The notes below the pieces were generated by a model that saw nothing but the letters and a program-made list of their open reading frames with translations, searched no databases and was not told the DNA's origin. 24,279 bases of DNA. Origin: Oligoflexia bacterium. Its GTDB lineage: Bacteria; Myxococcota_A; UBA796; UBA2385. The position numbers and the translations under genes were made by a program. Where the stretch lies: NCBI GenBank assembly GCA_013152105.1, contig JAADHA010000514.1, positions 1-24,279 of the forward strand. Reading direction: 5' to 3'. Shown piece after piece: positions 324 through 9,546 of the stretch (positions within the stretch are counted from its first letter, which is position 1; every line of letters starts with the position of its first letter).

Positions 324-1310
324 TCAGGGCAACCGGATGCCGGCCTTGTCGGCGATGGCCCGGGTCAACTGACGAAAGTCCTCGCCACACTTCCGAGCGG
401 CAGCGCCGCGGGAGCCAAGCGCGCCGTCGGCCGGCTTGAGGTGGAAGATGGGCTTGCGGGCCTCTATTGCCATGGGCATCAGGCTGCGGTAGTGCTTGAG
501 CTGGGCGAGGCAGTGGGGGTCCTTGTCGACTTTCACCACGTCCGCCGAAGGCTCGTCCAGCACAGAGCCCCGATACTCCGACGGGATCCTGGCCATCCAC
601 TTCGCATTGGCTCGCATCGGTCGATCCAGTCGCACGTTGTGCTGGAGGACGACATACCCGGCGGGTGCCATCGCCCCGGTTGGGAGATCCAGGTCTCGTG
701 GTGCCTTTTGGCGGCGTTCAGCCCAGCCCTCTCGCCAGTCGCGCAGGGCGGGGCCAAGGTTACGCAGCCCTTGGAGCGAGAACAGGTCCGGTGCGAGGGG
801 CATGACCACGTGGTCGGTTCCAAGCAGGGCCGCGCGCTTGATGGCGCCCAGGTTTGGACCCACATCGATGAGCACGATCTCGGTACCACGTGCCTCGGCC
901 GCCATGAGCATCATCCGGTAGAAGGCCGTCAGCATTCGGAAGGCGGCTTCGTCCTGGTCGAGGCAGCGGTGCCAGTCCTGGGAGAGGCGATCCTCGATGC
1001 GGGAGAGACCCAGGTCTCCCACGACCAGGCCGATGGCGTCGCTGATCTCCTCGACATGGGGCTGGCGCACATCGCCAAGCCCCCGCAGAATCGGCCCGAC
1101 CGCACCGAGCACAGTGTCGACGTGATCGTCGTCCGGCCACAGCTTCGCCAAGCGCTCTTCTTCCAGGAACATCGACGTGAGGTTGGCCTGGGGATCGAGA
1201 TCGGCGACCACGACATCGACCCCGAGGTCGGCCAGTGTCCAGGCCACGTGGTAGACCAGGGTGCTCTTGCCCACGCCGCCCTTGTTGTTGAAGAAGGCGA
1301 TGGTGTTCAT
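324..1310 (-). CDS. ParA/MinD-family ATPase (328 aa)
   Basis: Deviant Walker A NNKGGVGKST, ADLDPQANLT motif, Walker B IVLIDVGP and PLAPDLFSLQGL. The C-terminus HYRSLMPMAIEARKPIFHL is typical of the non-partitioning ParA subfamily. The ATG overlaps the upstream stop (ATGA at 1310-1307). Confidence 0.92.
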   Translation of the reverse strand: MNTIAFFNNKGGVGKSTLVYHVAWTLADLGVDVVVADLDPQANLTSMFLEEERLAKLWPDDDHVDTVLGAVGPILRGLGDVRQPHVEEISDAIGLVVGDLGLSRIEDRLSQDWHRCLDQDEAAFRMLTAFYRMMLMAAEARGTEIVLIDVGPNLGAIKRAALLGTDHVVMPLAPDLFSLQGLRNLGPALRDWREGWAERRQKAPRDLDLPTGAMAPAGYVVLQHNVRLDRPMRANAKWMARIPSEYRGSVLDEPSADVVKVDKDPHCLAQLKHYRSLMPMAIEARKPIFHLKPADGALGSRGAAARKCGEDFRQLTRAIADKAGIRLP

Positions 1311-2065
1311 GATCTCCGCCTGACGGTGACGAGCGTGGCGCTTTGCGAGAGCGAGAACTCCGGTGGAGGGTTGCCGTTGTCTCGCAGCAGTCGCCTGGAG
1401 AGGGGGATCCCGTAGCCGAAGCGCTGGACGTAGCCGAGGTTGGCCATGGCTTCCGCCACCAGGGGGTTGCGATAGTCGGTCGCGCCACTGCCGAAGTTGT
1501 CCAGAGTCACCTGCCCGAAGGGGCCGCCGGGGTTGTGGATCTCGACGCGATCATCGAACCAGTAGATGCGAACGGGGGCGTTGCTGGTCTCGTAGTTGCG
1601 ATGGATCAGGGCGTTGCGGGCGAGCTGCTGCAAGGCCGCCAGGGGGTAGTCGCGGACGCGTGACTCGGTCGCCCCGCCTGCGATGTCGACGGCGGTGGAG
1701 ACATTGAGCTTCAGCAGGCCGTCGAGCCGATGAACGACTTCGTACAGCGGACCGGACAGATCGTGGTCGTCCTTGATGGGGTCGCCCAGCTCGGTGCCGT
1801 CGATGCGCAGGAACACCAGGTACGCGCCGGGGACGAAGCTCCTCGGGTCCTTCCCCAGGACCAGGATGGCACCGTAGGTAGGCAGATAGCCAGACAGCAA
1901 GCGCAGGGACTCAAGGCGTTCCTGGACGGTTCGTTGGTTGTGACGGAGCACATCCGCATCGACTGCCGCGGGGAGGTAATTGCTCTTGAAGTAGGCAAGG
2001 TCGAGATCGTCCAGGCCCGAGCCGTCGGCTGGACGCCGGTCGAAGGGCTGGCTTCGGTGACTCAT
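1307..2065 (-). CDS. RecG-C/HATPase_c_4-type ATP-binding protein lacking the N-terminal Schlafen/AlbA_2 domain (252 aa)
   Basis: Motifs YPLAALQQLARNALIHRNY, RVEIHNPGG, YRNPLVAEAM and GYVQRFGYG. ATG at 2065 has GAGGAG just upstream. It begins at the PFD..P...LDDLD segment that normally follows the AlbA_2 domain. It could be a truncated remnant. Confidence 0.8.
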   Translation of the reverse strand: MSHRSQPFDRRPADGSGLDDLDLAYFKSNYLPAAVDADVLRHNQRTVQERLESLRLLSGYLPTYGAILVLGKDPRSFVPGAYLVFLRIDGTELGDPIKDDHDLSGPLYEVVHRLDGLLKLNVSTAVDIAGGATESRVRDYPLAALQQLARNALIHRNYETSNAPVRIYWFDDRVEIHNPGGPFGQVTLDNFGSGATDYRNPLVAEAMANLGYVQRFGYGIPLSRRLLRDNGNPPPEFSLSQSATLVTVRRRS

Positions 2066-2143
2066 GCCGGTGCTCCTCTCTTCCTGCTTGCCCTGCGGCG
2101 CCGGCCCGCAGCCCCAGATCCCCATGAGCCCCCCACCCGAGCG

Positions 2144-4228
2144 TCAGTGACCGGGGGCCAGCGTGGTCTCGAAGGTCCAGTAGTCGGCGGGATCACTCAG
2201 CGCGAAGGTCATCGTGTGCAGCCCGCGAGAGATGCAGCCCAGAAAGTCGGGGTCTACATCGGCTGGTTCCAGTGCGGTGAGGCCCTGAACATGACCGCTG
2301 AAGCCCACGAATGCCCGCAGCTTGATGCTGCTTGGTGCGTCTGCATGGGCGGTGAAGCAGGTGTCGAACATGGCGCGCGAGACTTGGAGTTGTTCCTGGA
2401 CAGCGGCCGCCGAGAGGGTGACGCCTTCTTGGCTCTTCGTGGGCTGGAAGAGGGGCTGGTCCAGTTCAAGGTGGGGCTGTACAGAAATGGGGTGATCTGG
2501 CTTTGGGTCCACCACGTCCTGGAAGGGCTGGAAGCCGTCGAGGGACACGGTGAGCCGCACGGGACCGGGTGGGAGCTGGTCGCCCTGGAAGGTGTGCGGG
2601 CCGACTCCGACCAGGACATCGTTGAGGTACACGACGGCCGTCGGTGGATCGGGGTCCACCTGAAGGAGTCGTTGGCTGGAATTGGGTTGGGTGCTGACTT
2701 GGTAGGCCAGCCGCCCGGCTCCCCAGAGCGTGAGCGCGCCCACCGCCACCAGGCCGGCGATGAGCAGGACCCGTGGAACCCGCTCGCGCTCGACATCCAA
2801 GGTGACGGTCACTCGCGGACCATGGGATGGCACGATTGTCACGATGCTGCTGCCGCGTTGGCGGGGCATCCGATCTGGATGAACGGTCGCCGTGATCTGG
2901 TGCTGGGTCTGTCCGGCGTCCAGCCGCTCGGGATTGACGGTGACCCAGTCGCGATCCGCCATGATGCGGCCGGTGGTGGGCCCGGTTCCGACCTGCTTGA
3001 GTCGAATGGTGACGGAGCGGTTTCGCCTGCCGACGCGTAGGCTGTACTGGTTGGGAGTGAGCAGTTCGACGCAAGTTCCACTGCGCTGTGAGCCGAGAGA
3101 CAGGGTCTTACCGGTGATACGCTCGGGCGGTCGAGGAATGCTCAGCACCGAGGGTTTTGGCGGTGTGGACCCGGGATTGGACCGGATGGCGGCCATGAGG
3201 TGGGACGCGGGGACCGGTGGGATCGTGCCAGGTGGCTGTGTGACGGGACGTTTGCCAGGTGATGGTCGTCTGGGCTGGGACTGTGGTGGAGCGGAGATCG
3301 TGCGTGCACCGGGGGGGGCGCTGCTACCCGAGCGCTCGAGTCTGATGGGTGGGAGGGTCCCGGGCGGTTCGGTCGTGTCGCGCCGCTTCTTGTCCTTTGC
3401 AGATGAACTTCCGCCAAAGGAGACAAAATTGAGACTGGGCAGCGAGGGCTCCTGGTCCGCGCTGGCCTGGCTCGGCTCGTTGGTGGGCGGTCGCAGGAAG
3501 CCGTCGGTAGGGTCCAAATCAAAGGCAGAGGCAGCAGGAAAATGGGCCCGGTACTTGTCGTCATAGGCGGCACGCCGAGTCGGGTCCTTCAGGTCTCGGA
3601 GCGCTGCGTCGATGCGGGAATACTCGTCTCGCGATCGTCGCGTGTCGGACAAGGTGCGTGCCCAGCGGTACTTTTCTCGGTACGCGTGGTCGATCTCGTC
3701 TGGTGTGGCGGAGATCGGGACTCCCAGGACCAGGTAGTGGTTGGGGAAGTCGTCGGGGGGCGCACTGCCGCTGGCTGCACCGCCGCTGGTGTCGATGCCG
3801 TGTTCCTTGGCGAGGGACTGGATTTGCTGGCGCACGGCGCTTTCCTTCAAGCCGAGCTTCTTGCCCTGAGCGAGGATGGCGGCTTCGCCGGCTGGGGTGA
3901 GCGAGCCGCTGGCCAGCGTGCCCCGGATGAAGAGAGACAGGACCTCGAGACCGCGGGTCTGCTCGTGGTCGGCGAGATAGTCGATATACTGCTGGCGCGC
4001 GTCCATCAGCGATCCGCGCAGCAGGCGGATGTTCTTGATCACCCAGATCGCTTCGCCACGGTACTTGGGATTGGCTTGTTGGCCCTGGGCCCAGGCGCGG
4101 CGGCTCTTGATCGCTTGTTCGGCTTCGCCCGCAGGAGCCTGTGGGTCGAACGACAGGTAGTCGAACAACGAGGTCTTTCCCACTGTCGTGAGGAAGCGGG
4201 TGATTTCTTCGAAGTCGCGCTCGTTCAT
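2144..4228 (-). CDS. Single-pass membrane protein: J-like domain, TerB-like helical segment, J-like domain, Pro-rich linker, Ig/BACON-like domain, TM helix, PEGA, AgmX/PglI (TonB-C-like) C-terminal domain
   Basis: The J fold is clear at 3742-3551 (NHYLVLGVPISATPDEIDHAY...DLKDPTRRAAYDDKY) but has no HPD. TM helix VLLIAGLVAVGALTLWGAG at ~2770-2714 is preceded by RERVPR. PEGA pattern LQVDPDPPTAVVYLNDVLVG..P...L.PG...L.V...GF. C-terminal VQEQLQVSRAMFDTCF...F.GCI..L..M.F. Start is ATG 4228 or TTG 4264 (ORF track). Confidence 0.8.
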   Translation of the reverse strand: MNERDFEEITRFLTTVGKTSLFDYLSFDPQAPAGEAEQAIKSRRAWAQGQQANPKYRGEAIWVIKNIRLLRGSLMDARQQYIDYLADHEQTRGLEVLSLFIRGTLASGSLTPAGEAAILAQGKKLGLKESAVRQQIQSLAKEHGIDTSGGAASGSAPPDDFPNHYLVLGVPISATPDEIDHAYREKYRWARTLSDTRRSRDEYSRIDAALRDLKDPTRRAAYDDKYRAHFPAASAFDLDPTDGFLRPPTNEPSQASADQEPSLPSLNFVSFGGSSSAKDKKRRDTTEPPGTLPPIRLERSGSSAPPGARTISAPPQSQPRRPSPGKRPVTQPPGTIPPVPASHLMAAIRSNPGSTPPKPSVLSIPRPPERITGKTLSLGSQRSGTCVELLTPNQYSLRVGRRNRSVTIRLKQVGTGPTTGRIMADRDWVTVNPERLDAGQTQHQITATVHPDRMPRQRGSSIVTIVPSHGPRVTVTLDVERERVPRVLLIAGLVAVGALTLWGAGRLAYQVSTQPNSSQRLLQVDPDPPTAVVYLNDVLVGVGPHTFQGDQLPPGPVRLTVSLDGFQPFQDVVDPKPDHPISVQPHLELDQPLFQPTKSQEGVTLSAAAVQEQLQVSRAMFDTCFTAHADAPSSIKLRAFVGFSGHVQGLTALEPADVDPDFLGCISRGLHTMTFALSDPADYWTFETTLAPGH

Positions 4229-4267
4229 GTCCGCCAGCGGCGTCGCCTGGTTCACGTTGGCCAAGGC

Positions 4268-4330: not shown

Positions 4331-6112
4331 TTAACTGACTTGGGCCCGGTTCACGTTCTCGAAAGCGCGGGACAGATCGTCCTGTCCGAGGCCGCCGCGG
4401 AGGCTGATCTCGGCGCTACGCGTGGCCTGTGTCTCGACATCGACGACGTCGACTTCCAGGATCTGATTGACGCCGTATCGATAGCTGACCTCGATGACCG
4501 TGCCCCGAGGCCGGGGTGGCAGCTTGTCGAGGATCACCTCGCCGATGACCTTGACTTCGGCGCGTGAGCCGCCTTCACCCTCGGTTACTTCGACGCGCAC
4601 GGCGGTCATATTGTCGTAGGCATAGGCGAAGCGACCGTGTTTCTCGCAGGGAAGCGGGGTCGCCGATGGGATGATCGGCACCACGCGTTCGCGGAGCTGC
4701 TTGTCCAGGACGACGATACCCAGCGTGTGGCTGGTGATATCCGTGACCTTTACGTTCGGGATTCCGACGGTGGTGCGGCCGATTTCGTTGGTGAACGGGT
4801 TGGAGGCTGACCGCCCATGCCTGGAGCGTTCCGGAGCGGGTTCCAGCGTGGGCGTCAGGTCGTGTTCGAGGTGGCTGGGTTCGGTTGGCGCGGGTACCGG
4901 CAGGGGTGCCGGTAGGGGTGCCGGTAGGGGTGCCGGCAGGGGTGCCGGTCGGGGTGCCGGCGCGTCCTGGCTTGGAGAGGCTGCGCGCCTGCGCCCGACC
5001 GCGCGATGGGCCAGCGCTTGCCGATGGGCGAGCAGCGCCGGGTGCGAGGGGCGGTGTCGCAGCACGCCTGCCAGGGCAGCGCCCAGCGCCACGCACTCGT
5101 CGGGGTTGACGCCCAGGGCCGCTTCCTGACCCGACATTGTACGCAGCCGCTGACTGATCATCGGCATGCGTGTCGAGCCCCCCACCAGCAGGACCTCGTC
5201 CAGATCCCCCCACCCGACGCCGGAACGCTTGAGCACCAGATCGCAGGTCTCCGCACACTGCTCGACCAGGTCTGCCGTCATCGCCTCGAACTCTTCCCGC
5301 ATGACGCTGACCACCATGCGGTTCCCCTTGTAGGTGACGGGGATCACGGCCCGCTCGCGGCTCGACAGGGAGATCTTGGCGTGCAGACAGCGTTCGTAGA
5401 GTTCCTGGTAGCGGTGTGGGTCATCGCGCGGATCAGAGCCGAACTTGCTGACGAATTCCTCGGAGACGTGGTTCACCAGCCGGTCGTCCCAGTCCTTTCC
5501 CCCCAGCTCGGCGTTGCCATCGCTGGCTACGGTGCGAAACGACACGCCCGTGATCTCCATCAGCGTCACGTCAAAGGTGCCTCCGCCCAGGTCGAAGACC
5601 ATCAGGCGGCGGTCCTGGCCCAGCCGCTCGATGCCGTAGGCGATCGCGGCCGTGGTCGGCTCGTTGATGATGGACAGCACATTGAGGCCAGCGAGCTTCC
5701 CGGCTTCGGCGGTGGCACCGCGCTGGGCGCTGTTGAAGTAGGCGGGCACCGTGACCACCGCGTCGCAGACGGCTTTTCCGAGCGCTTCTTCAGCGTCTTC
5801 CTTCATCTTTCGCAAGATGATGGCCGAGAGTTCTTGGGGGGTGTAGGTCCTGCCGAAGAACTCCAAGGAGAAGTCGGGTTCGCCCATGGTGCGCTTGATG
5901 AAGCGCACGACATTGGTCGGATCGACGACCACCATCTTGACCGCTTCTTCGCCGACAACACAAGCGTCGCGATGGTAGAAGTGAATCACCGAGGGCGTGG
6001 TCGGGTGACCGTCGGCGTTGGGGACGATCACCGGCTTGCCGAAGCGATCGACAATTGCCATGGCCGAGAAGGTCGTGCCAAGGTCGATGCCCATGACCAG
6101 ATCGCTGTTCAT
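4331..6112 (-). CDS. Hsp70-family protein, lidless, with ~100 aa Pro-rich insertion before the interdomain linker (593 aa)
   Basis: GIDLGTT, TVPAYF, INEPTTAAIAYG, VFDLGGGTFDV, LVGGSTRMP and NPDECVALGAAL are present. The SBD-beta runs DITSHTLG...LPPRPRG...YRYGVNQILEV. The protein ends about 20 aa later. ATG 6112 lies 13 nt after the grpE stop. Confidence 0.93.
   Translation of the reverse strand: MNSDLVMGIDLGTTFSAMAIVDRFGKPVIVPNADGHPTTPSVIHFYHRDACVVGEEAVKMVVVDPTNVVRFIKRTMGEPDFSLEFFGRTYTPQELSAIILRKMKEDAEEALGKAVCDAVVTVPAYFNSAQRGATAEAGKLAGLNVLSIINEPTTAAIAYGIERLGQDRRLMVFDLGGGTFDVTLMEITGVSFRTVASDGNAELGGKDWDDRLVNHVSEEFVSKFGSDPRDDPHRYQELYERCLHAKISLSSRERAVIPVTYKGNRMVVSVMREEFEAMTADLVEQCAETCDLVLKRSGVGWGDLDEVLLVGGSTRMPMISQRLRTMSGQEAALGVNPDECVALGAALAGVLRHRPSHPALLAHRQALAHRAVGRRRAASPSQDAPAPRPAPLPAPLPAPLPAPLPVPAPTEPSHLEHDLTPTLEPAPERSRHGRSASNPFTNEIGRTTVGIPNVKVTDITSHTLGIVVLDKQLRERVVPIIPSATPLPCEKHGRFAYAYDNMTAVRVEVTEGEGGSRAEVKVIGEVILDKLPPRPRGTVIEVSYRYGVNQILEVDVVDVETQATRSAEISLRGGLGQDDLSRAFENVNRAQVS
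4897..4960. repeat. 12-bp tandem repeat, about 5 copies, in frame (PAPL units)
   Basis: Units CCGGYAGGGGTG start at 4897, 4909, 4921 and 4933, CCGGTCGGGGTG at 4945, plus a partial CCGG. They encode PAPRPAPLPAPLPAPLPAPLP. Confidence 0.9.
5082..5109. repeat. 28-bp perfect direct repeat shared by the two Hsp70 genes (other copy 7658-7685)
   Basis: CCCAGCGCCACGCACTCGTCGGGGTTGA is identical at 5082-5109 and 7658-7685, encoding NPDECVALG. Confidence 0.85.
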
Positions 6113-6125
6113 GGGCGGTCCGTCT

Positions 6126-6671
6126 TCACTTGCCACCCGACGTCTCCGAGCCAGTAGCGCGACCAGGCTCGAAGCGATTGATCACGACTTCTTCGGGTCG
6201 CAGGATCCGCTCGCCCCGGGTGAAGCCCCGCTTCAGGACCTGGCGCACGACATAGTCCTTGAGCTTGTCGTTGGCGTAGACGACCTTGATGGCCTTTTGG
6301 GTCTCGCGATCGAACTTGTCCTTGCTCTCCATGGGCAGGACGTCTCGGCGGTAGAGCAGCTCGAGGAACTCGTCGATCAGGTACTGAAAGCTGTCCGCGA
6401 TCACCTCGGCGCTCATCTCTTGCTTTACCAGGCTTTGCTGGAACCAGTTGAGGCTGTCGTAGAACAACAGCAGGTCGAGCAAGAGCGGCTTCTCCATCTG
6501 GTAGATGAAGTCGTCCTTGTACTGCCGAAGCTCTTCGTAGAGGGCATCAAAGGCACGCTGCTGGACATCGTCGCGCTTGGCCTGCTGGTCGACGAAGTCG
6601 CGCAGGCTGTCGACTTCGTCGCTCTGGACGTCGATCGAGTAGTCCTGCTCAGGTGTCTGGTTGTCTGCCAC
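6126..6671 (-). CDS. grpE: GrpE-family nucleotide exchange factor (181 aa)
   Basis: Coiled-coil N-terminus, KPLLLDLLLFYDSL, KFDRETQKAIKVV and the C-terminal VRQVLKRGFTRGERILRPEEVVI. GTG start with AGGAG overlapping the upstream TAG stop. Confidence 0.85.
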   Translation of the reverse strand: MADNQTPEQDYSIDVQSDEVDSLRDFVDQQAKRDDVQQRAFDALYEELRQYKDDFIYQMEKPLLLDLLLFYDSLNWFQQSLVKQEMSAEVIADSFQYLIDEFLELLYRRDVLPMESKDKFDRETQKAIKVVYANDKLKDYVVRQVLKRGFTRGERILRPEEVVINRFEPGRATGSETSGGK

Positions 6672-6681
6672 GGGCTGACTC

Positions 6682-8682
6682 CTAGCTTGGGTCGCTCAGC
6701 TCGGTCGCGAGGTTGATGAAGGTGCCTTCCAATTCCACGCTCTGGTTGCAGTGGTGGTAGTCGGAAGGGCGCGAGCACAAGCCCATCAGGAATTCCTGAT
6801 GGACCTGTCTGCCCACGCCGATGGCGACGATGCGGCCCCCGGTGCGGCGGATGCGCTGGCTCTCTGCCATGGTCGCGGCCGGATCGTCAGGGTGCCCGTC
6901 CGCCAGGATGACCACGACGCGCTGGGCCCCCGAGTTGCTCTTGAGAGCCTTGCGGGCCTGTTGCAGCCCCAGCGCCATGGGCGTGGACCCGATGGGGCTC
7001 AGGCCACTGAGCGCGGCGTGCAGCGCGTCTCGATCCTGGGTTGGCGCGGCACGAAGCCCGCCAGGGAAGGCGATGACGGCGATGTGTCGGGAACGGTCCA
7101 GGGTGCGGTCGACGAAGGCCAGGGCGGCCGCGCGGGCGTCCCGGATATTGCTGCCGTACATCGATCCCGAGCAGTCCATCACCAGCGCGATGTGCATGGG
7201 CACACGATTGCTGGCCAGGTCTTCCAGGGTCACGCCGCCCTGCGCCAGACGGTGGGCCAGCGTCTGGCCGGTGTTGAGGTCCATTGCTTCGACTTCGACG
7301 ATGCCGTTTGCGTTGTAGCGGTAGGTCACAGCGAGCTGTGTAGCGCCAGCGGGCCGGGGCGGGATCCCGTAGAACTCGAAATGCCCGAGCACATTGCAAT
7401 TCAGCGGGTCGGGGTTTTCGCCTTGGACCAGCCACAGGTCCATCGTGGACTGACCGTCGTGGGTCGTGACGTAGTTGTCGCGCGTGTGTTCGCATGGAAT
7501 GCGGCTGTTGCGCCGGATGATCGGGCTGTTGTGCATCTTGTTGTCGCGGTACACGACCATGCCCAGGCTGTGGCTGGTGACGTCGTGGGTGCGGATGTCG
7601 ATCGGTGGTCGGTCGCCAGTGAGTCGTGCGCTCTCCAGGGCCGCGGTGAGCGCCGCACCCAGCGCCACGCACTCGTCGGGGTTGATGTCAGTGGCGGGCT
7701 CGCGCTGAAACAGGCGCCGGATCAGCTCGCGCACCATGGGCATGCGGGTTGATCCACCGGCCAACAAGACCGTGTCGATGTCCTGGGGGCGAACCTTGGC
7801 GTCGTCCATGACATCCAGGGTCAAGGCTTCGCAGCGGCCGAGCAAGCCGATCGACAGATCCTCGAAGATCTCACGGGTGATGGACTGCCGCAGGATCTGG
7901 CCCTGGAAGTCATAAAAAATGTTGACCTTTGGGCGACGCGAGAGGCTGAGCTTGGCGCTTACACACTTCTGGCGCAGGTCGTGGTAGGCGACCAGGTCGT
8001 CGAGGGGGTCGACGCCGTGTTTCAGACTGAACTCGTGCGCGACGTAGCGCATCAGCGCGTCATCCCAGTCCTTTCCGCCGAGCTGATGGTCGCCGGTGCT
8101 GGCCAGCACGTTGATGTCGTTGCCGCGAATGTCGACGATGGTCACATCAAAGGTGCCACCGCCAAGGTCGAAGACCAGGCACTTCATGTCCTGGCCCTGG
8201 TGGGCCAGTCCGTAGGCGAAGGCGGCCGCGGTGGGTTCGTTGACCAGCTTGAGGACCTGGAGACCGGCCAGCTCGCCGGCCCGGATCGTGGCGCGGCGCT
8301 GCCGGTCGCCGAAGTAGGCTGGAACCGTCACGACCGCCTGTTCGATGCTGTGCCCCATGCGGTGTTCGGCGTCGTGCTTGAGTCGGGCCAGGATGAAGCT
8401 GGACAGCTTTTCGGGGCTGTACTGTTCGCCGCGGTACTCAAAGCTGAAGTCGTCGGGGCCCATGTGGCGCTTGATGAACTCAACCACCTGGTTTGGAAAC
8501 GCGATCGCGGCCTGCTTGGCGTAGTTTCCGACGATGATGTCGTCGCCGTCAAAGAGCAGGACGGATGGGGTGATCCGGTCCCCCTCGGCGTTGGCGAGGA
8601 TCTCCGGTACACCGTGCTTGTTGACGTGGGCGATGGCCGAGTAGGTCGTGCCCAGGTCGATGCCGACAGCTCGGATACTCAT
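6682..8682 (-). CDS. Hsp70-vWA fusion protein (666 aa)
   Basis: Hsp70 motifs GIDLGTT, VPAYF, VNEPTAAAFAYG, DLGGGTFDV, LAGGSTRMP and DVTSHSLG. These are followed by a vWA domain (~7200-6685) with MIDAS DCSGS, GSTP and ILADG. ATG 8682 has a TAAGGAG SD. Confidence 0.93.
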   Translation of the reverse strand: MSIRAVGIDLGTTYSAIAHVNKHGVPEILANAEGDRITPSVLLFDGDDIIVGNYAKQAAIAFPNQVVEFIKRHMGPDDFSFEYRGEQYSPEKLSSFILARLKHDAEHRMGHSIEQAVVTVPAYFGDRQRRATIRAGELAGLQVLKLVNEPTAAAFAYGLAHQGQDMKCLVFDLGGGTFDVTIVDIRGNDINVLASTGDHQLGGKDWDDALMRYVAHEFSLKHGVDPLDDLVAYHDLRQKCVSAKLSLSRRPKVNIFYDFQGQILRQSITREIFEDLSIGLLGRCEALTLDVMDDAKVRPQDIDTVLLAGGSTRMPMVRELIRRLFQREPATDINPDECVALGAALTAALESARLTGDRPPIDIRTHDVTSHSLGMVVYRDNKMHNSPIIRRNSRIPCEHTRDNYVTTHDGQSTMDLWLVQGENPDPLNCNVLGHFEFYGIPPRPAGATQLAVTYRYNANGIVEVEAMDLNTGQTLAHRLAQGGVTLEDLASNRVPMHIALVMDCSGSMYGSNIRDARAAALAFVDRTLDRSRHIAVIAFPGGLRAAPTQDRDALHAALSGLSPIGSTPMALGLQQARKALKSNSGAQRVVVILADGHPDDPAATMAESQRIRRTGGRIVAIGVGRQVHQEFLMGLCSRPSDYHHCNQSVELEGTFINLATELSDPS

Positions 8683-8827
8683 CGTGCTCCTTACGGTGCG
8701 GCACGGGTGAAGTGGGGTCCCGCGATCAGGTCCGCGACCGGAGAGTGAGTCCGGGTGCGCGGATGCCCGGCACGGTAGCATCCCAGTGCGCGCCAGACTA
8801 ACCGAGTGTCTGCTCACTGGAGCCGAG

Positions 8828-9487
8828 ATGACCGATCACGACGCGGGGGTCAAGGGCCGGATCGTGCTGGCCAGCAGCAGTCAGTGGCGTCGGCAGCTAC
8901 TCCTCGACGCGGGTCTGCCCTGTGTCGTGGTGGCACCAGACGTGGACGAGGATGCCATCAAGGGACGGAGCCCCGTCGACACGGCGGTGCGCAGGGCTCG
9001 GGCCAAGGCGCGTCAGGTGGCCTGTCGACATCCCCAAGCGCTGGTGCTGGGAGCGGATCAGGTGCTGTGGTGGGCGGATCATGGCGTCGATGGGGGCGCG
9101 GTGGCGGAGACGATCGGCAAGCCCCGGGACCCGGCAGACTGGCTGCGTCGCCTGCGCCAGCTCCGCACCGGCCGGCACGAACTGACGACCGCCGTGTCCC
9201 TGGTGGCACCCCCTCAATTGGGCGGGTCAGACGACTTCACGGTCACGACCGGCGTGACGCTGCGGTCGGACCTGAGCCAGGCCGAGCTGCTGGCCTATGT
9301 GGACTTTGGAGAAGGGGCCGGCTGCGCTGGCGGCTACATGGTCGAGCGTCGGGGGGCGTGGCTGGTCGATCGCATCGACGGCGACTGGTACAATGTGGTC
9401 GGGCTGCCGGTCTTGCACGTCGTGGCTCGGCTGCGGGCTCGGGGTTGGCGCCTGGGGGCGGACGGCCGCGCTCGGCCACCGGCCTGA
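8828..9487 (+). CDS. maf: Maf-family nucleotide pyrophosphatase, YceF-type (probable m7GTP pyrophosphatase)
   Basis: IVLASSSQWRRQLL, GADQV, IGKP, CAGGYMVE and NVVGLP. The W/Q/E signature matches the YceF rather than the YhdE subfamily. ATG 8828 follows GGAG. Confidence 0.9.
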   Translation: MTDHDAGVKGRIVLASSSQWRRQLLLDAGLPCVVVAPDVDEDAIKGRSPVDTAVRRARAKARQVACRHPQALVLGADQVLWWADHGVDGGAVAETIGKPRDPADWLRRLRQLRTGRHELTTAVSLVAPPQLGGSDDFTVTTGVTLRSDLSQAELLAYVDFGEGAGCAGGYMVERRGAWLVDRIDGDWYNVVGLPVLHVVARLRARGWRLGADGRARPPA

Positions 9488-9546
9488 CACCTCTTCCCCG
9501 CCGGGCTGTCGGCGGGATAGCTGCCGCATGACCGGAGCCGGCTGCG

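What the first reader, a model, noticed from the sequence alone, without database searches (positions are those of the whole stretch)
6682..8682. vWA domain replaces the alpha-helical lid of an Hsp70
Seen: a complete SBD-beta is followed after only ~15 aa by a vWA domain with intact MIDAS (DCSGS, T, D). Established: MIDAS vWA domains bind acidic residues of partners through a metal ion and act as adaptors for MoxR AAA+ ATPases, and TerY-type vWA proteins occur in stress-response loci. Inference: client selection here may be metal-dependent and protein-specific, with the vWA as a built-in adaptor positioned where the lid would close.
Basis: partly seen in the sequence, partly recalled or inferred. 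Interest (0 to 1): 0.65.

Follow-up and report, generated by a model that had tools for sequence, protein, structure and literature searches.

The report
Lidless Hsp70 fused to vWA domain
The gene does encode an Hsp70 chaperone whose helical lid is replaced by a metal-dependent vWA docking domain; it heads a conserved, unstudied chaperone-plus-protease operon kept by a whole uncultured order of Myxococcota, and similar fusions occur in several other phyla.

Summary
Observation confirmed. Window 6682-8682 (minus strand) is a 666-aa ORF. It has an Hsp70 NBD and SBD-beta, about 10 residues of lid helix A, then a vWA domain with an intact MIDAS (D503-x-S505-x-S507, T567, D595).

It is not a chimera:
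- Syntenic orthologs occur in 58 of 59 sampled genomes of the same Myxococcota order and in 92 species-level MAGs.
- They always lie in the gene order Hsp70-vWA, GrpE-like, second lidless Hsp70, membrane protein with an HPD-less J-like domain and PEGA. In 45 of 48 loci a TPR-zincin metallopeptidase follows; that gene is missing from this contig.
- Collinear Hsp70-vWA fusions of 27-59% identity also form large clusters whose commonest phyla are Bacillota, Actinomycetota, Planctomycetota and Thermoplasmatota.
- The MIDAS and the Hsp70 catalytic residues are invariant in 109 aligned fusions.

The locus sits among housekeeping genes, with no MoxR, GTPase or known defence gene nearby.

Most likely the vWA is a built-in, metal-dependent docking hook. 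It would tether a lidless Hsp70 to one specific partner within a private, membrane-anchored chaperone/protease machine. The partner, and whether the vWA sits "where the lid closes", remain untested.

I found no paper describing the fusion. This scan has already noted the same architecture on other DNA (at least 18 genomes).

The parts
6682..8682 (-). Hsp70-vWA gene (666 aa plus stop), first gene of the operon
   Evidence: ORF and translation; Pfam HSP70 E 1.7e-132 and VWA E 2.9e-14; AlphaFold mean pLDDT 90.4, pTM 0.78
8687..8692 (-). Shine-Dalgarno AAGGAG, 4 nt before the ATG at 8682
   Evidence: Sequence read directly
7603..8682 (-). Nucleotide-binding domain (residues 1-360), catalytic set intact
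   Evidence: D9, K71, E149, D172, T177 and D179 (DnaK D8, K70, E171, D194, T199, D201) are invariant or nearly so in 109 fusions
7243..7602 (-). Polar interdomain linker (IRTHD in place of DnaK VLLLD) and SBD-beta (residues 361-480) with the family signature TSHSLG
   Evidence: Alignments with DnaK, HscA and HscC. SBD-beta is the most conserved domain among orthologs, 80% mean identity
7198..7242 (-). Junction (residues 481-495): remnant of lid helix A, fixed length
   Evidence: Helix 486-490 in the model. The spacing from G472 to D503 is 31 residues in 55 of 55 orthologs and 27-43 in distant fusions
6694..7197 (-). vWA domain (residues 496-663)
   Evidence: Pfam VWA, VWA_2 and VWA_3. Foldseek matches the CMG2/ANTXR2 vWA at TM 0.77-0.83, rmsd 2.4-2.9, and also TRAP, TFIIH p44 and BatB. 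PDB sequence hits to TRAP and PTMP1
7162..7176 (-). MIDAS DxSxS (D503, S505, S507)
   Evidence: Invariant in 109 of 109 fusions
6982..6984 (-). MIDAS Thr567
   Evidence: Present in 99 of 109
6898..6900 (-). MIDAS Asp595
   Evidence: Present in 109 of 109
6126..6671 (-). GrpE-like nucleotide exchange factor (181 aa); its GTG lies 11 nt after the Hsp70-vWA stop
   Evidence: Pfam GrpE E 2.5e-13 over profile 9-164 of 165. Follows the fusion gene in 79 of 80 related loci. Sequence
4331..6112 (-). Second lidless Hsp70 with no vWA and a disordered insert of about 100 aa before the linker
   Evidence: Pfam HSP70 E 1.4e-121. Alignment ends about 20 aa after beta8. Nested inside the fusion clade in the tree
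2144..4264 (-). Single-pass membrane protein: J-like domain without HPD, proline-rich region, TM at about 497-517, periplasmic PEGA
   Evidence: Pfam DnaJ E 1.8e-6 and PEGA E 2.4e-5. HPD position reads RTL; hydropathy peak at 499. Follows the second Hsp70 in 56 loci

Best explanation
The gene encodes an ATPase-competent Hsp70 of a distinct, non-DnaK subfamily. After the first 10 or so residues of helix A its helical lid has been replaced by a vWA domain with a complete MIDAS. It is the lead subunit of a private, vertically inherited chaperone machine made of a GrpE-like exchange factor, a second lidless Hsp70, an inner-membrane protein with an HPD-less J-like domain and a periplasmic PEGA domain and, in relatives, an active TPR-zincin metallopeptidase. 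I infer that the vWA is a built-in docking hook. Through its Mg2+/MIDAS site it would hold an acidic residue of one specific partner, either an operon component or a dedicated client. This would place the lidless SBD-beta and its ATP cycle on that target at the membrane. It would also compensate, by a second attachment point, for the fast substrate release expected of a lidless Hsp70. The logic matches ATPases that carry or pair with a MIDAS domain (MoxR-vWA, Mg-chelatase subunit D, midasin). Shown here: the architecture, residue conservation, operon, distribution and fold. Inferred: metal-dependent docking, the identity of the partner, and membrane-proximal action.
For: - Architecture and junction.
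- Conservation: the MIDAS DxSxS and the Asp are invariant, the Thr is present in 99 of 109, and the Hsp70 catalytic residues are invariant across fusions down to 27% identity.
- Junction length: exactly constant in 55 of 55 orthologs.
- Selection on the vWA: 64% mean identity among orthologs, against 73% for the NBD.
- Operon order: Hsp70-vWA, GrpE, Hsp70, J-like/PEGA in every locus with enough DNA. A TPR-zincin gene with HExxH intact in 45 of 45 follows in 45 of 48 loci.
- Distribution: orthologs in 58 of 59 genomes of the order, at a fixed position next to UDG and an S1 protein.
- Phylogeny: the fusion proteins and the partner Hsp70 form one clade apart from the DnaK-type proteins (support 1.0).
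- NCBIfam: DnaK and HscA models score below their cut-offs.
- Structure: NBD and SBD-beta are modelled in the docked, ATP-like state. The vWA matches ligand-binding MIDAS domains such as CMG2 and TRAP.
- Context: no MoxR, GTPase or defence gene nearby.
Against: - No partner or ligand has been identified, and no multimer modelling was possible.
- The junction is the least confident part of both models. The two-domain model has pTM 0.67, so a fixed geometry is not established.
- The hydrophobic linker VLLL that couples the DnaK domains is polar here (IRTH), DnaK R167 is Lys, and the operon's J-like domain lacks HPD. The ATPase cycle may therefore be regulated in a way not covered by the DnaK model.
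- The TPR-zincin gene is absent from this contig and from the 79%-complete assembly.
Confidence: 0.6

Rival explanations
1. The vWA is a pseudo-lid. It packs over the SBD-beta cleft. Its MIDAS binds acidic residues of the bound client, or of the SBD itself, so that closing and client choice depend on metal.
For: The vWA starts only about 10 residues into helix A, and the junction length is fixed, so the domain must lie next to SBD-beta. The full-length model has pTM 0.78. One family-specific acidic position lies in the cleft strand: D415, equivalent to DnaK T437, is D or E in 99 of 109.
Against: No coordinates were available to show contact with the cleft. The junction pLDDT is 67-82 and the two-domain pTM only 0.67. 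Apart from D415 there is no family-specific invariant acidic residue in the Hsp70 part that could be an internal MIDAS ligand. The partner Hsp70 of the same clade does without both lid and vWA.
Confidence: 0.15
2. The operon is a conflict or defence system of the kind described by Kaur et al. 2020 (the HSP70-GrpE theme of the GAP1-N2 GTPase systems). In that reading the vWA and the lidless Hsp70 act as sensors and the protease as a trigger.
For: The parts list resembles that theme: HSP70, GrpE, a second HSP70 and a J-fused membrane repeat protein (PMC7159879). A 2025 preprint proposes a lidless DnaK-like domain as a stress sensor fused to protease-effector modules (PMC12642450). An active metallopeptidase is part of the conserved operon.
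Against: No GAP1 or DO-GTPase and no recognisable effector is present. PADLOC gives no hit. The locus is order-wide and syntenic between housekeeping genes (S1 protein, UDG, queA, tgt, secDF) rather than patchy or in an island. No fused copy was found on plasmids.
Confidence: 0.1
3. The fusion is an assembly or gene-calling artefact of this fragmented MAG.
For: The genome is a 693-contig MAG, 79% complete.
Against: The same uninterrupted frame of about 666 aa occurs in 92 species genomes and in more than 250 protein clusters from independent projects.
Confidence: 0.01

Closest known systems
DnaK-DnaJ-GrpE (canonical bacterial Hsp70 system)
   Same: Actin-fold NBD with all catalytic residues, an SBD-beta with a hydrophobic cleft, and an operon-encoded GrpE-type factor.
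   Different: No helical lid. The linker is polar instead of VLLL. R167 is Lys. The partner J-like domain lacks HPD. A second Hsp70 sits in the same operon. The protein scores below the NCBIfam DnaK cut-off (434.6 against 648).
E. coli HscC with the membrane-anchored J-proteins DjlB/DjlC
   Same: A specialised, non-DnaK Hsp70 paired with a dedicated membrane J-type partner. HscC and an own-genome HscC-like gene are the nearest outgroup of the fusion clade.
   Different: The sister relation is weak (support 0.66). HscC has a helical C-terminal part and no vWA. From general knowledge, HscC does not use GrpE, whereas a GrpE-like gene is conserved here.
ATPases with a MIDAS partner or domain: MoxR-vWA pairs (RavA-ViaA), Mg-chelatase subunit D (AAA+ fused to vWA), midasin/Rea1
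   Same: A nucleotide-driven remodelling ATPase is combined with a MIDAS domain that grips an acidic residue of a specific target (general knowledge; PMC3893208 and PMC7159879 for MoxR-vWA).
   Different: The motor here is an Hsp70, not an AAA+ protein, and no MoxR gene is nearby.
HSP70-GrpE theme of the GAP1-N2 GTPase-centric systems (Kaur, Burroughs, Iyer and Aravind 2020, PMC7159879)
   Same: HSP70, GrpE, a second HSP70 and a membrane repeat protein fused to a J domain. vWA and PEGA domains recur in those systems.
   Different: That description does not mention an Hsp70-vWA fusion. Its defining GTPases are absent here. Its second HSP70 lacks the peptide-binding domain, whereas this one keeps SBD-beta. 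This operon is vertically inherited in a housekeeping context.
Lidless DnaK-like domain fused to EACC1-protease modules (bioRxiv 2025, PMC12642450)
   Same: An Hsp70 without a lid is joined to another module and linked to a protease, and is proposed to sense rather than refold.
   Different: The fusion partner and context differ. That DnaK-like domain is about 50% identical to DnaK, whereas this family is about 33% identical.

Membership tests
Hsp70 (PF00012) | Actin-fold NBD with catalytic Asp, Lys, Glu and Thr residues | tested here: met
   D9, K71, E149, D172, T177 and D179 are conserved; Pfam E 1.7e-132
Hsp70 (PF00012) | SBD-beta peptide-binding sandwich | tested here: met
   Aligned through beta8 with DnaK structures. 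Eight strands in the model. Foldseek matches DnaK, BiP and mortalin SBDs
Hsp70 (PF00012) | Alpha-helical lid (SBD-alpha) | tested here: not met
   Profile positions 494-599 are unmatched. Only about 10 residues of helix A remain
Hsp70 (PF00012) | Hydrophobic interdomain linker (DnaK 389-VLLLD-393) | tested here: not met
   Reads IRTHD here; the positions are polar or variable across the family
DnaK or HscA equivalog (NCBIfam) | Score above the curated cut-off | tested here: not met
   DnaK model NF001413 scores 434.6 against 648; HscA model TIGR01991 scores 364.7 against 708.55. The tree places it outside the DnaK-type group
Hsp70/J-protein/GrpE system | J-domain partner with an HPD motif | tested here: not met
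   The operon's J-like domain has RTL at the HPD position. Other J-proteins elsewhere in the genome were not examined
Hsp70/J-protein/GrpE system | GrpE-type exchange factor | tested here: met
   Pfam GrpE E 2.5e-13, full-length match. Conserved next to the fusion in 79 of 80 loci. All NCBIfam GrpE equivalog models score below their cut-offs
vWA domain with MIDAS | DxSxS...T...D motif | tested here: met
   D503, S505, S507, T567, D595
vWA domain with MIDAS | Alpha/beta Rossmann-like vWA fold | tested here: met
   Alternating strands and helices in the model. TM 0.77-0.83 to the CMG2 vWA
vWA domain with MIDAS | Binds a divalent metal and an acidic ligand | not testable with these tools
   Needs biochemistry or a structure
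MoxR-vWA chaperone pair | Adjacent MoxR-type AAA+ ATPase | tested here: not met
   No AAA+ MoxR among the window's genes
TerY-P triad | vWA with an adjacent PP2C phosphatase and Ser/Thr kinase | tested here: not met
   Neither is present in the window
GAP1-N2 GTPase-centric system (Kaur et al. 2020) | GAP1-N2 protein and paired DO-type GTPases in the neighbourhood | tested here: not met
   No GTPase domain in the window. The flanks are housekeeping genes and are conserved across the order
Known anti-phage defence systems (PADLOC) | Match to a defence-system protein model | tested here: not met
   Only one sub-threshold hit (E 0.004) for the four operon proteins

The most novel reading that the evidence does not exclude
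Hsp70-vWA fusions define an undescribed class of Hsp70 machine that works without a lid and without an HPD J-domain. Two paralogous lidless Hsp70s, a private GrpE and a MIDAS hook would be tethered to an envelope-spanning J-like/PEGA protein and would control an active TPR-zincin protease. This would give regulated proteolysis, or cytoplasm-to-envelope force or signal transmission, on one dedicated client. The system would be essential cell biology of a whole uncultured Myxococcota order, with cousins in Bacillota, Actinomycetota, Planctomycetota and possibly archaea.
Probability: 0.25. Interest if true: 0.8.

Novelty: new variant of a known kind. Interest (0 to 1): 0.55.

Why it matters
Hsp70 mechanism is understood almost entirely through lid-bearing, J-domain-driven chaperones. 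Here is a large, strongly conserved family that discards the lid, replaces it with a metal-dependent protein-docking domain, pairs with a second lidless Hsp70 and an HPD-less J-like membrane anchor, and keeps its own GrpE. It offers a natural experiment on what the lid and the J-domain are for. It also suggests that bacteria build client-dedicated Hsp70 machines on the same principle as MoxR-vWA or midasin. The family is annotated only as "Hsp70 family protein" or "DnaK" in public records, so it is invisible to users of annotations. Members in cultured Bacillota, such as Ureibacillus xyleni WP_161946656.1, make it testable.

Tried and rejected
Gene neighbourhoods of the distant fusions outside Myxococcota could therefore not be read.
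- The single metagenome scan, with distant member P0207, returned only two short contigs. One holds tandem Hsp70 genes. The other holds a lidless Hsp70, a TerB-domain protein and an M48 peptidase. This is suggestive but not enough.
- A search with the vWA part of the Ureibacillus protein found only 3 close fused relatives.
- A plasmid search found Hsp70 SBD hits only, with no fusion.
- PADLOC gave nothing.
- Eight full-text searches found no paper describing an Hsp70-vWA fusion. The library omits most subscription journals, so this is not proof of absence.
- The position of the vWA relative to the substrate cleft could not be determined, because the structure tools return no coordinates or PAE. 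Folding the SBD-beta-vWA pair alone gave pTM 0.67, which is inconclusive.
- A MoxR or TerY context was considered and rejected, as was a chimeric assembly.
- The sister relation to HscC is weak (support 0.66) and is not claimed as membership.
- The tree's fused sequences were chosen by similarity to the query, so a single origin of the fusion is not shown.
- The GTDB name of the order could not be recovered, because genome handles are anonymous.
Full report
**What is there.** On the minus strand an ORF runs from 8817 to 6682. The ATG at 8682 is preceded by AAGGAG at 8687-8692 and gives a 666-aa protein starting MSIRAVGIDLGTT. These are exactly the finding's coordinates. Pfam gives HSP70 at E 1.7e-132 for residues 5-476, covering profile positions 1-493 of 599, and VWA at E 2.9e-14 for residues 498-643. 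The best solved relative by sequence is Geobacillus DnaK (2v7y, E 9e-104), aligned over residues 4-477.

**The junction.** In an alignment with E. coli DnaK, the last SBD-beta strand (KITIKA) corresponds to LAHRLA. The first residues of lid helix A (SGLNEDEIQK) correspond to GGVTLEDLAS. The next residues are already strand beta1 of the vWA, which ends in the MIDAS motif DCSGS.

**The full-length model.** An AlphaFold2 model built on 109 sequences has mean pLDDT 90.4 and pTM 0.78. It shows beta8 at 474-479, a 5-residue helix at 486-490 and vWA beta1 at 496-503.

**Is it functional?**
- I aligned 109 full-length fusions: 55 orthologs and 54 distant members down to 27% identity. The MIDAS DxSxS and D595 are invariant, and T567 is present in 99 of 109.
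- The Hsp70 catalytic and phosphate-binding residues (DnaK D8, K70, E171, D194, G196-T199, D201) are invariant or nearly so.
- Among orthologs, mean pairwise identity is 73% for the NBD, 80% for SBD-beta and 64% for the vWA, so all three parts are under purifying selection.
- The distance from G472 to the MIDAS Asp is exactly 31 residues in 55 of 55 orthologs and 27-43 in distant members.
- The vWA model matches ligand-binding MIDAS domains: CMG2/ANTXR2 at TM 0.77-0.83 and rmsd 2.4-2.9, plus TRAP, TFIIH p44 and BatB. Sequence hits agree (TRAP, PTMP1).
- NBD plus SBD-beta superpose best on docked, ATP-like Hsp70 structures (BiP-ATP 5e84, rmsd 4.4 over 526 columns; AMPylated BiP, TM 0.85). They fit undocked ADP-state structures less well (2kho and 2v7y, query TM below 0.5).

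**Departures from DnaK.**
- The hydrophobic linker VLLLD reads IRTHD.
- DnaK R167, which contacts the J-domain, is Lys.
- DnaK L397 is a nearly invariant His, giving the family signature TSHSLG, which the partner Hsp70 shares.
- Position 415 (DnaK T437, in a cleft strand) is Asp or Glu in 99 of 109.
- The NCBIfam DnaK and HscA models score well below their cut-offs.

**Not a chimera: the conserved operon.**
- A search with the vWA part found 259 protein clusters. All of the best 120 carry PF00012 plus PF00092, and nearly all are 655-685 aa long apart from four shorter, mostly partial entries. Where they are named at all, it is "Hsp70 family protein", "hypothetical protein" or "DnaK/YegL".
- A scan of one genome per species found 92 loci. 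All are uncultured MAGs, mostly labelled Myxococcota or Deltaproteobacteria.
- tblastn with the window's proteins shows the fixed order Hsp70-vWA, GrpE-like, second Hsp70, J-like/PEGA protein wherever the contig is long enough (80, 79, 80 and 56 of 80 loci). UDG and an S1-domain protein lie upstream in 50 and 47 loci.
- In a sample of 400 Myxococcota genomes, 58 of 59 genomes from the window's own order have the gene. Outside the order only generic vWA hits appear (E 1e-11 to 1e-18). Five of these were inspected and have no Hsp70 part.
- The more diverged in-order copies (29-41% identity in the vWA) sit at the same syntenic position.
- Gene junctions in the window are tight. The GrpE-like GTG is 11 nt after the fusion's stop, and the second Hsp70's ATG at 6112 is 13 nt after the GrpE stop.

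**A fifth gene that the window lacks.**
- In 45 of 48 related loci with room, the J-like gene is followed, sometimes with overlapping stop and start, by a gene of about 280 aa. It encodes TPR repeats plus a Zincin_1 domain (PF06262, E about 1e-22), and HExxH is intact in 45 of 45.
- The closest relative (L001, 89% identical fusion protein) has this gene.
- In this window the J-like gene is instead followed by a HATPase_c_4/ParA-like pair, found in 0 of 80 related loci, and then the contig ends. The TPR-zincin gene is not found anywhere in this 79%-complete assembly.

**Context.**
- The rest of the window is housekeeping: an S1 protein, UDG, queA, tgt, secD, secF, PIN-PhoH, a SpoU methylase and an RseP-type protease.
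- There is no MoxR AAA+ protein, GTPase, kinase/phosphatase or PADLOC match.
- The genome has about ten Hsp70 paralogs, including DnaK-type genes, so this operon is additional to general proteostasis.
- The J-like membrane protein has RTL where HPD should be, one TM segment near 497-517 and a periplasmic PEGA domain.

**Wider family.**
- A profile-free search of 1.84 billion representatives with SBD-beta plus vWA gave 31 hits below 1e-30. Of the best 150 hits, 55 are full-length collinear Hsp70-vWA fusions of 657-797 aa. One is from cultured Ureibacillus xyleni.
- The ESM Atlas lists at least eight clusters of 53-270 members in which essentially all members carry HSP70 plus a VWA family. Their commonest phyla are Myxococcota, Bacillota, Actinomycetota, Thermoplasmatota and Planctomycetota.
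- A FastTree of the NBD and SBD-beta columns puts all sampled fusions and the partner Hsp70 in one clade (support 1.0). The partner Hsp70 is nested inside it (0.92-0.96). The DnaK-type proteins are separate, and E. coli HscC with an own-genome HscC-like gene is a weakly supported sister (0.66).
- The fused sequences were picked by similarity to the query, so a single origin of the fusion is suggested but not shown.

**How it most likely works.**
- Shown: an active-looking Hsp70 ATPase and peptide-binding domain is rigidly or semi-rigidly joined to a MIDAS domain. It is co-inherited with its own exchange factor, a sister Hsp70, a membrane anchor with a degenerate J domain and a metallopeptidase.
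- Established elsewhere: lidless DnaK releases substrate fast and binds it less stably (Moro 2004 and Slepenkov and Witt 2002, cited in PMC12642450). MIDAS vWA domains grip an acidic residue of a protein ligand through a metal and serve as adaptors of remodelling ATPases (PMC7159879, PMC3893208).
- Inferred: the vWA gives this Hsp70 a second, specific, metal-dependent attachment to one partner. The partner could be an operon subunit or a dedicated client at the inner membrane. The SBD-beta/ATP cycle would then act locally, possibly feeding or regulating the zincin.

I put this reading at 0.6. A defence or conflict role (0.1) is suggested by the resemblance to the HSP70-GrpE theme of Kaur et al. 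and by the lidless-DnaK sensor idea. It is disfavoured by order-wide vertical inheritance in a housekeeping context and by the lack of GTPases, effectors or PADLOC hits.

**Novelty.** The architecture is present in public databases, but I found no paper describing it. The nearest published description, Kaur et al. 2020, lists HSP70, GrpE and vWA components but not this fusion, and its defining GTPases are absent here. Earlier notes of this scan report the same fusion in at least 18 other genomes. Those notes are unverified AI leads. My own data agree that the fusion travels with a second Hsp70 and a GrpE, and disagree, for this lineage, with an obligatory GTPase partner. I rate it a new variant of a known kind, of moderate interest.

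Noticed in passing
window 324-2125 (minus strand); compare L001:7450-8283 and L003:14851-15693: In 45 of 48 related loci a TPR plus Zincin_1 metallopeptidase gene (HExxH intact) follows the J-like gene. In this window a HATPase_c_4/ParA-like pair (0 of 80 related loci) sits there instead, and the contig then ends. The zincin gene was not found anywhere in this assembly. This could be an insertion, a rearrangement or an assembly gap.
   Followed up: partly
window 4766-5059 (minus strand), inside the second Hsp70: An Arg/Pro/His-rich insert of about 100 aa with PAPL repeats lies between the NBD and the linker of the partner Hsp70. Orthologs have an insert of different sequence at the same place (e.g. 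L050), so it is a conserved disordered spacer.
   Followed up: partly
L084 (G342) and L082 (G117): In two diverged members of the order the fusion gene is followed directly by the second Hsp70, and tblastn detects no GrpE-like gene between them. GrpE may have been lost or have diverged strongly.
   Followed up: no
L097:850-4735: A metagenome contig encodes a 517-aa lidless Hsp70 of this family, without vWA, followed by a TerB-domain protein and an M48 metallopeptidase. This is a second instance of a lidless Hsp70 linked to a metallopeptidase.
   Followed up: no
own genome: G000 contigs C30, C57, C20, C28, C100, C66, C381: About ten Hsp70-family genes lie in a 4.8-Mb, 79%-complete MAG. They include an HscC-like gene (C381) and several with truncated or extended C-termini (open frames of 544-910 aa).
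   Followed up: partly
window 8806-9531 (plus strand): This 241-aa ORF upstream of the operon has no Pfam or NCBIfam match and no tblastn match in any of 80 related loci. It is probably not a gene but a chance open frame in GC-rich intergenic DNA that holds the operon promoter.
   Followed up: partly
residue 415 of the fusion protein (window 7438-7440): A family-specific acidic residue (Asp or Glu in 99 of 109) sits at the position of DnaK T437 in a substrate-cleft strand. It could bias the cleft towards basic peptides.
   Followed up: no
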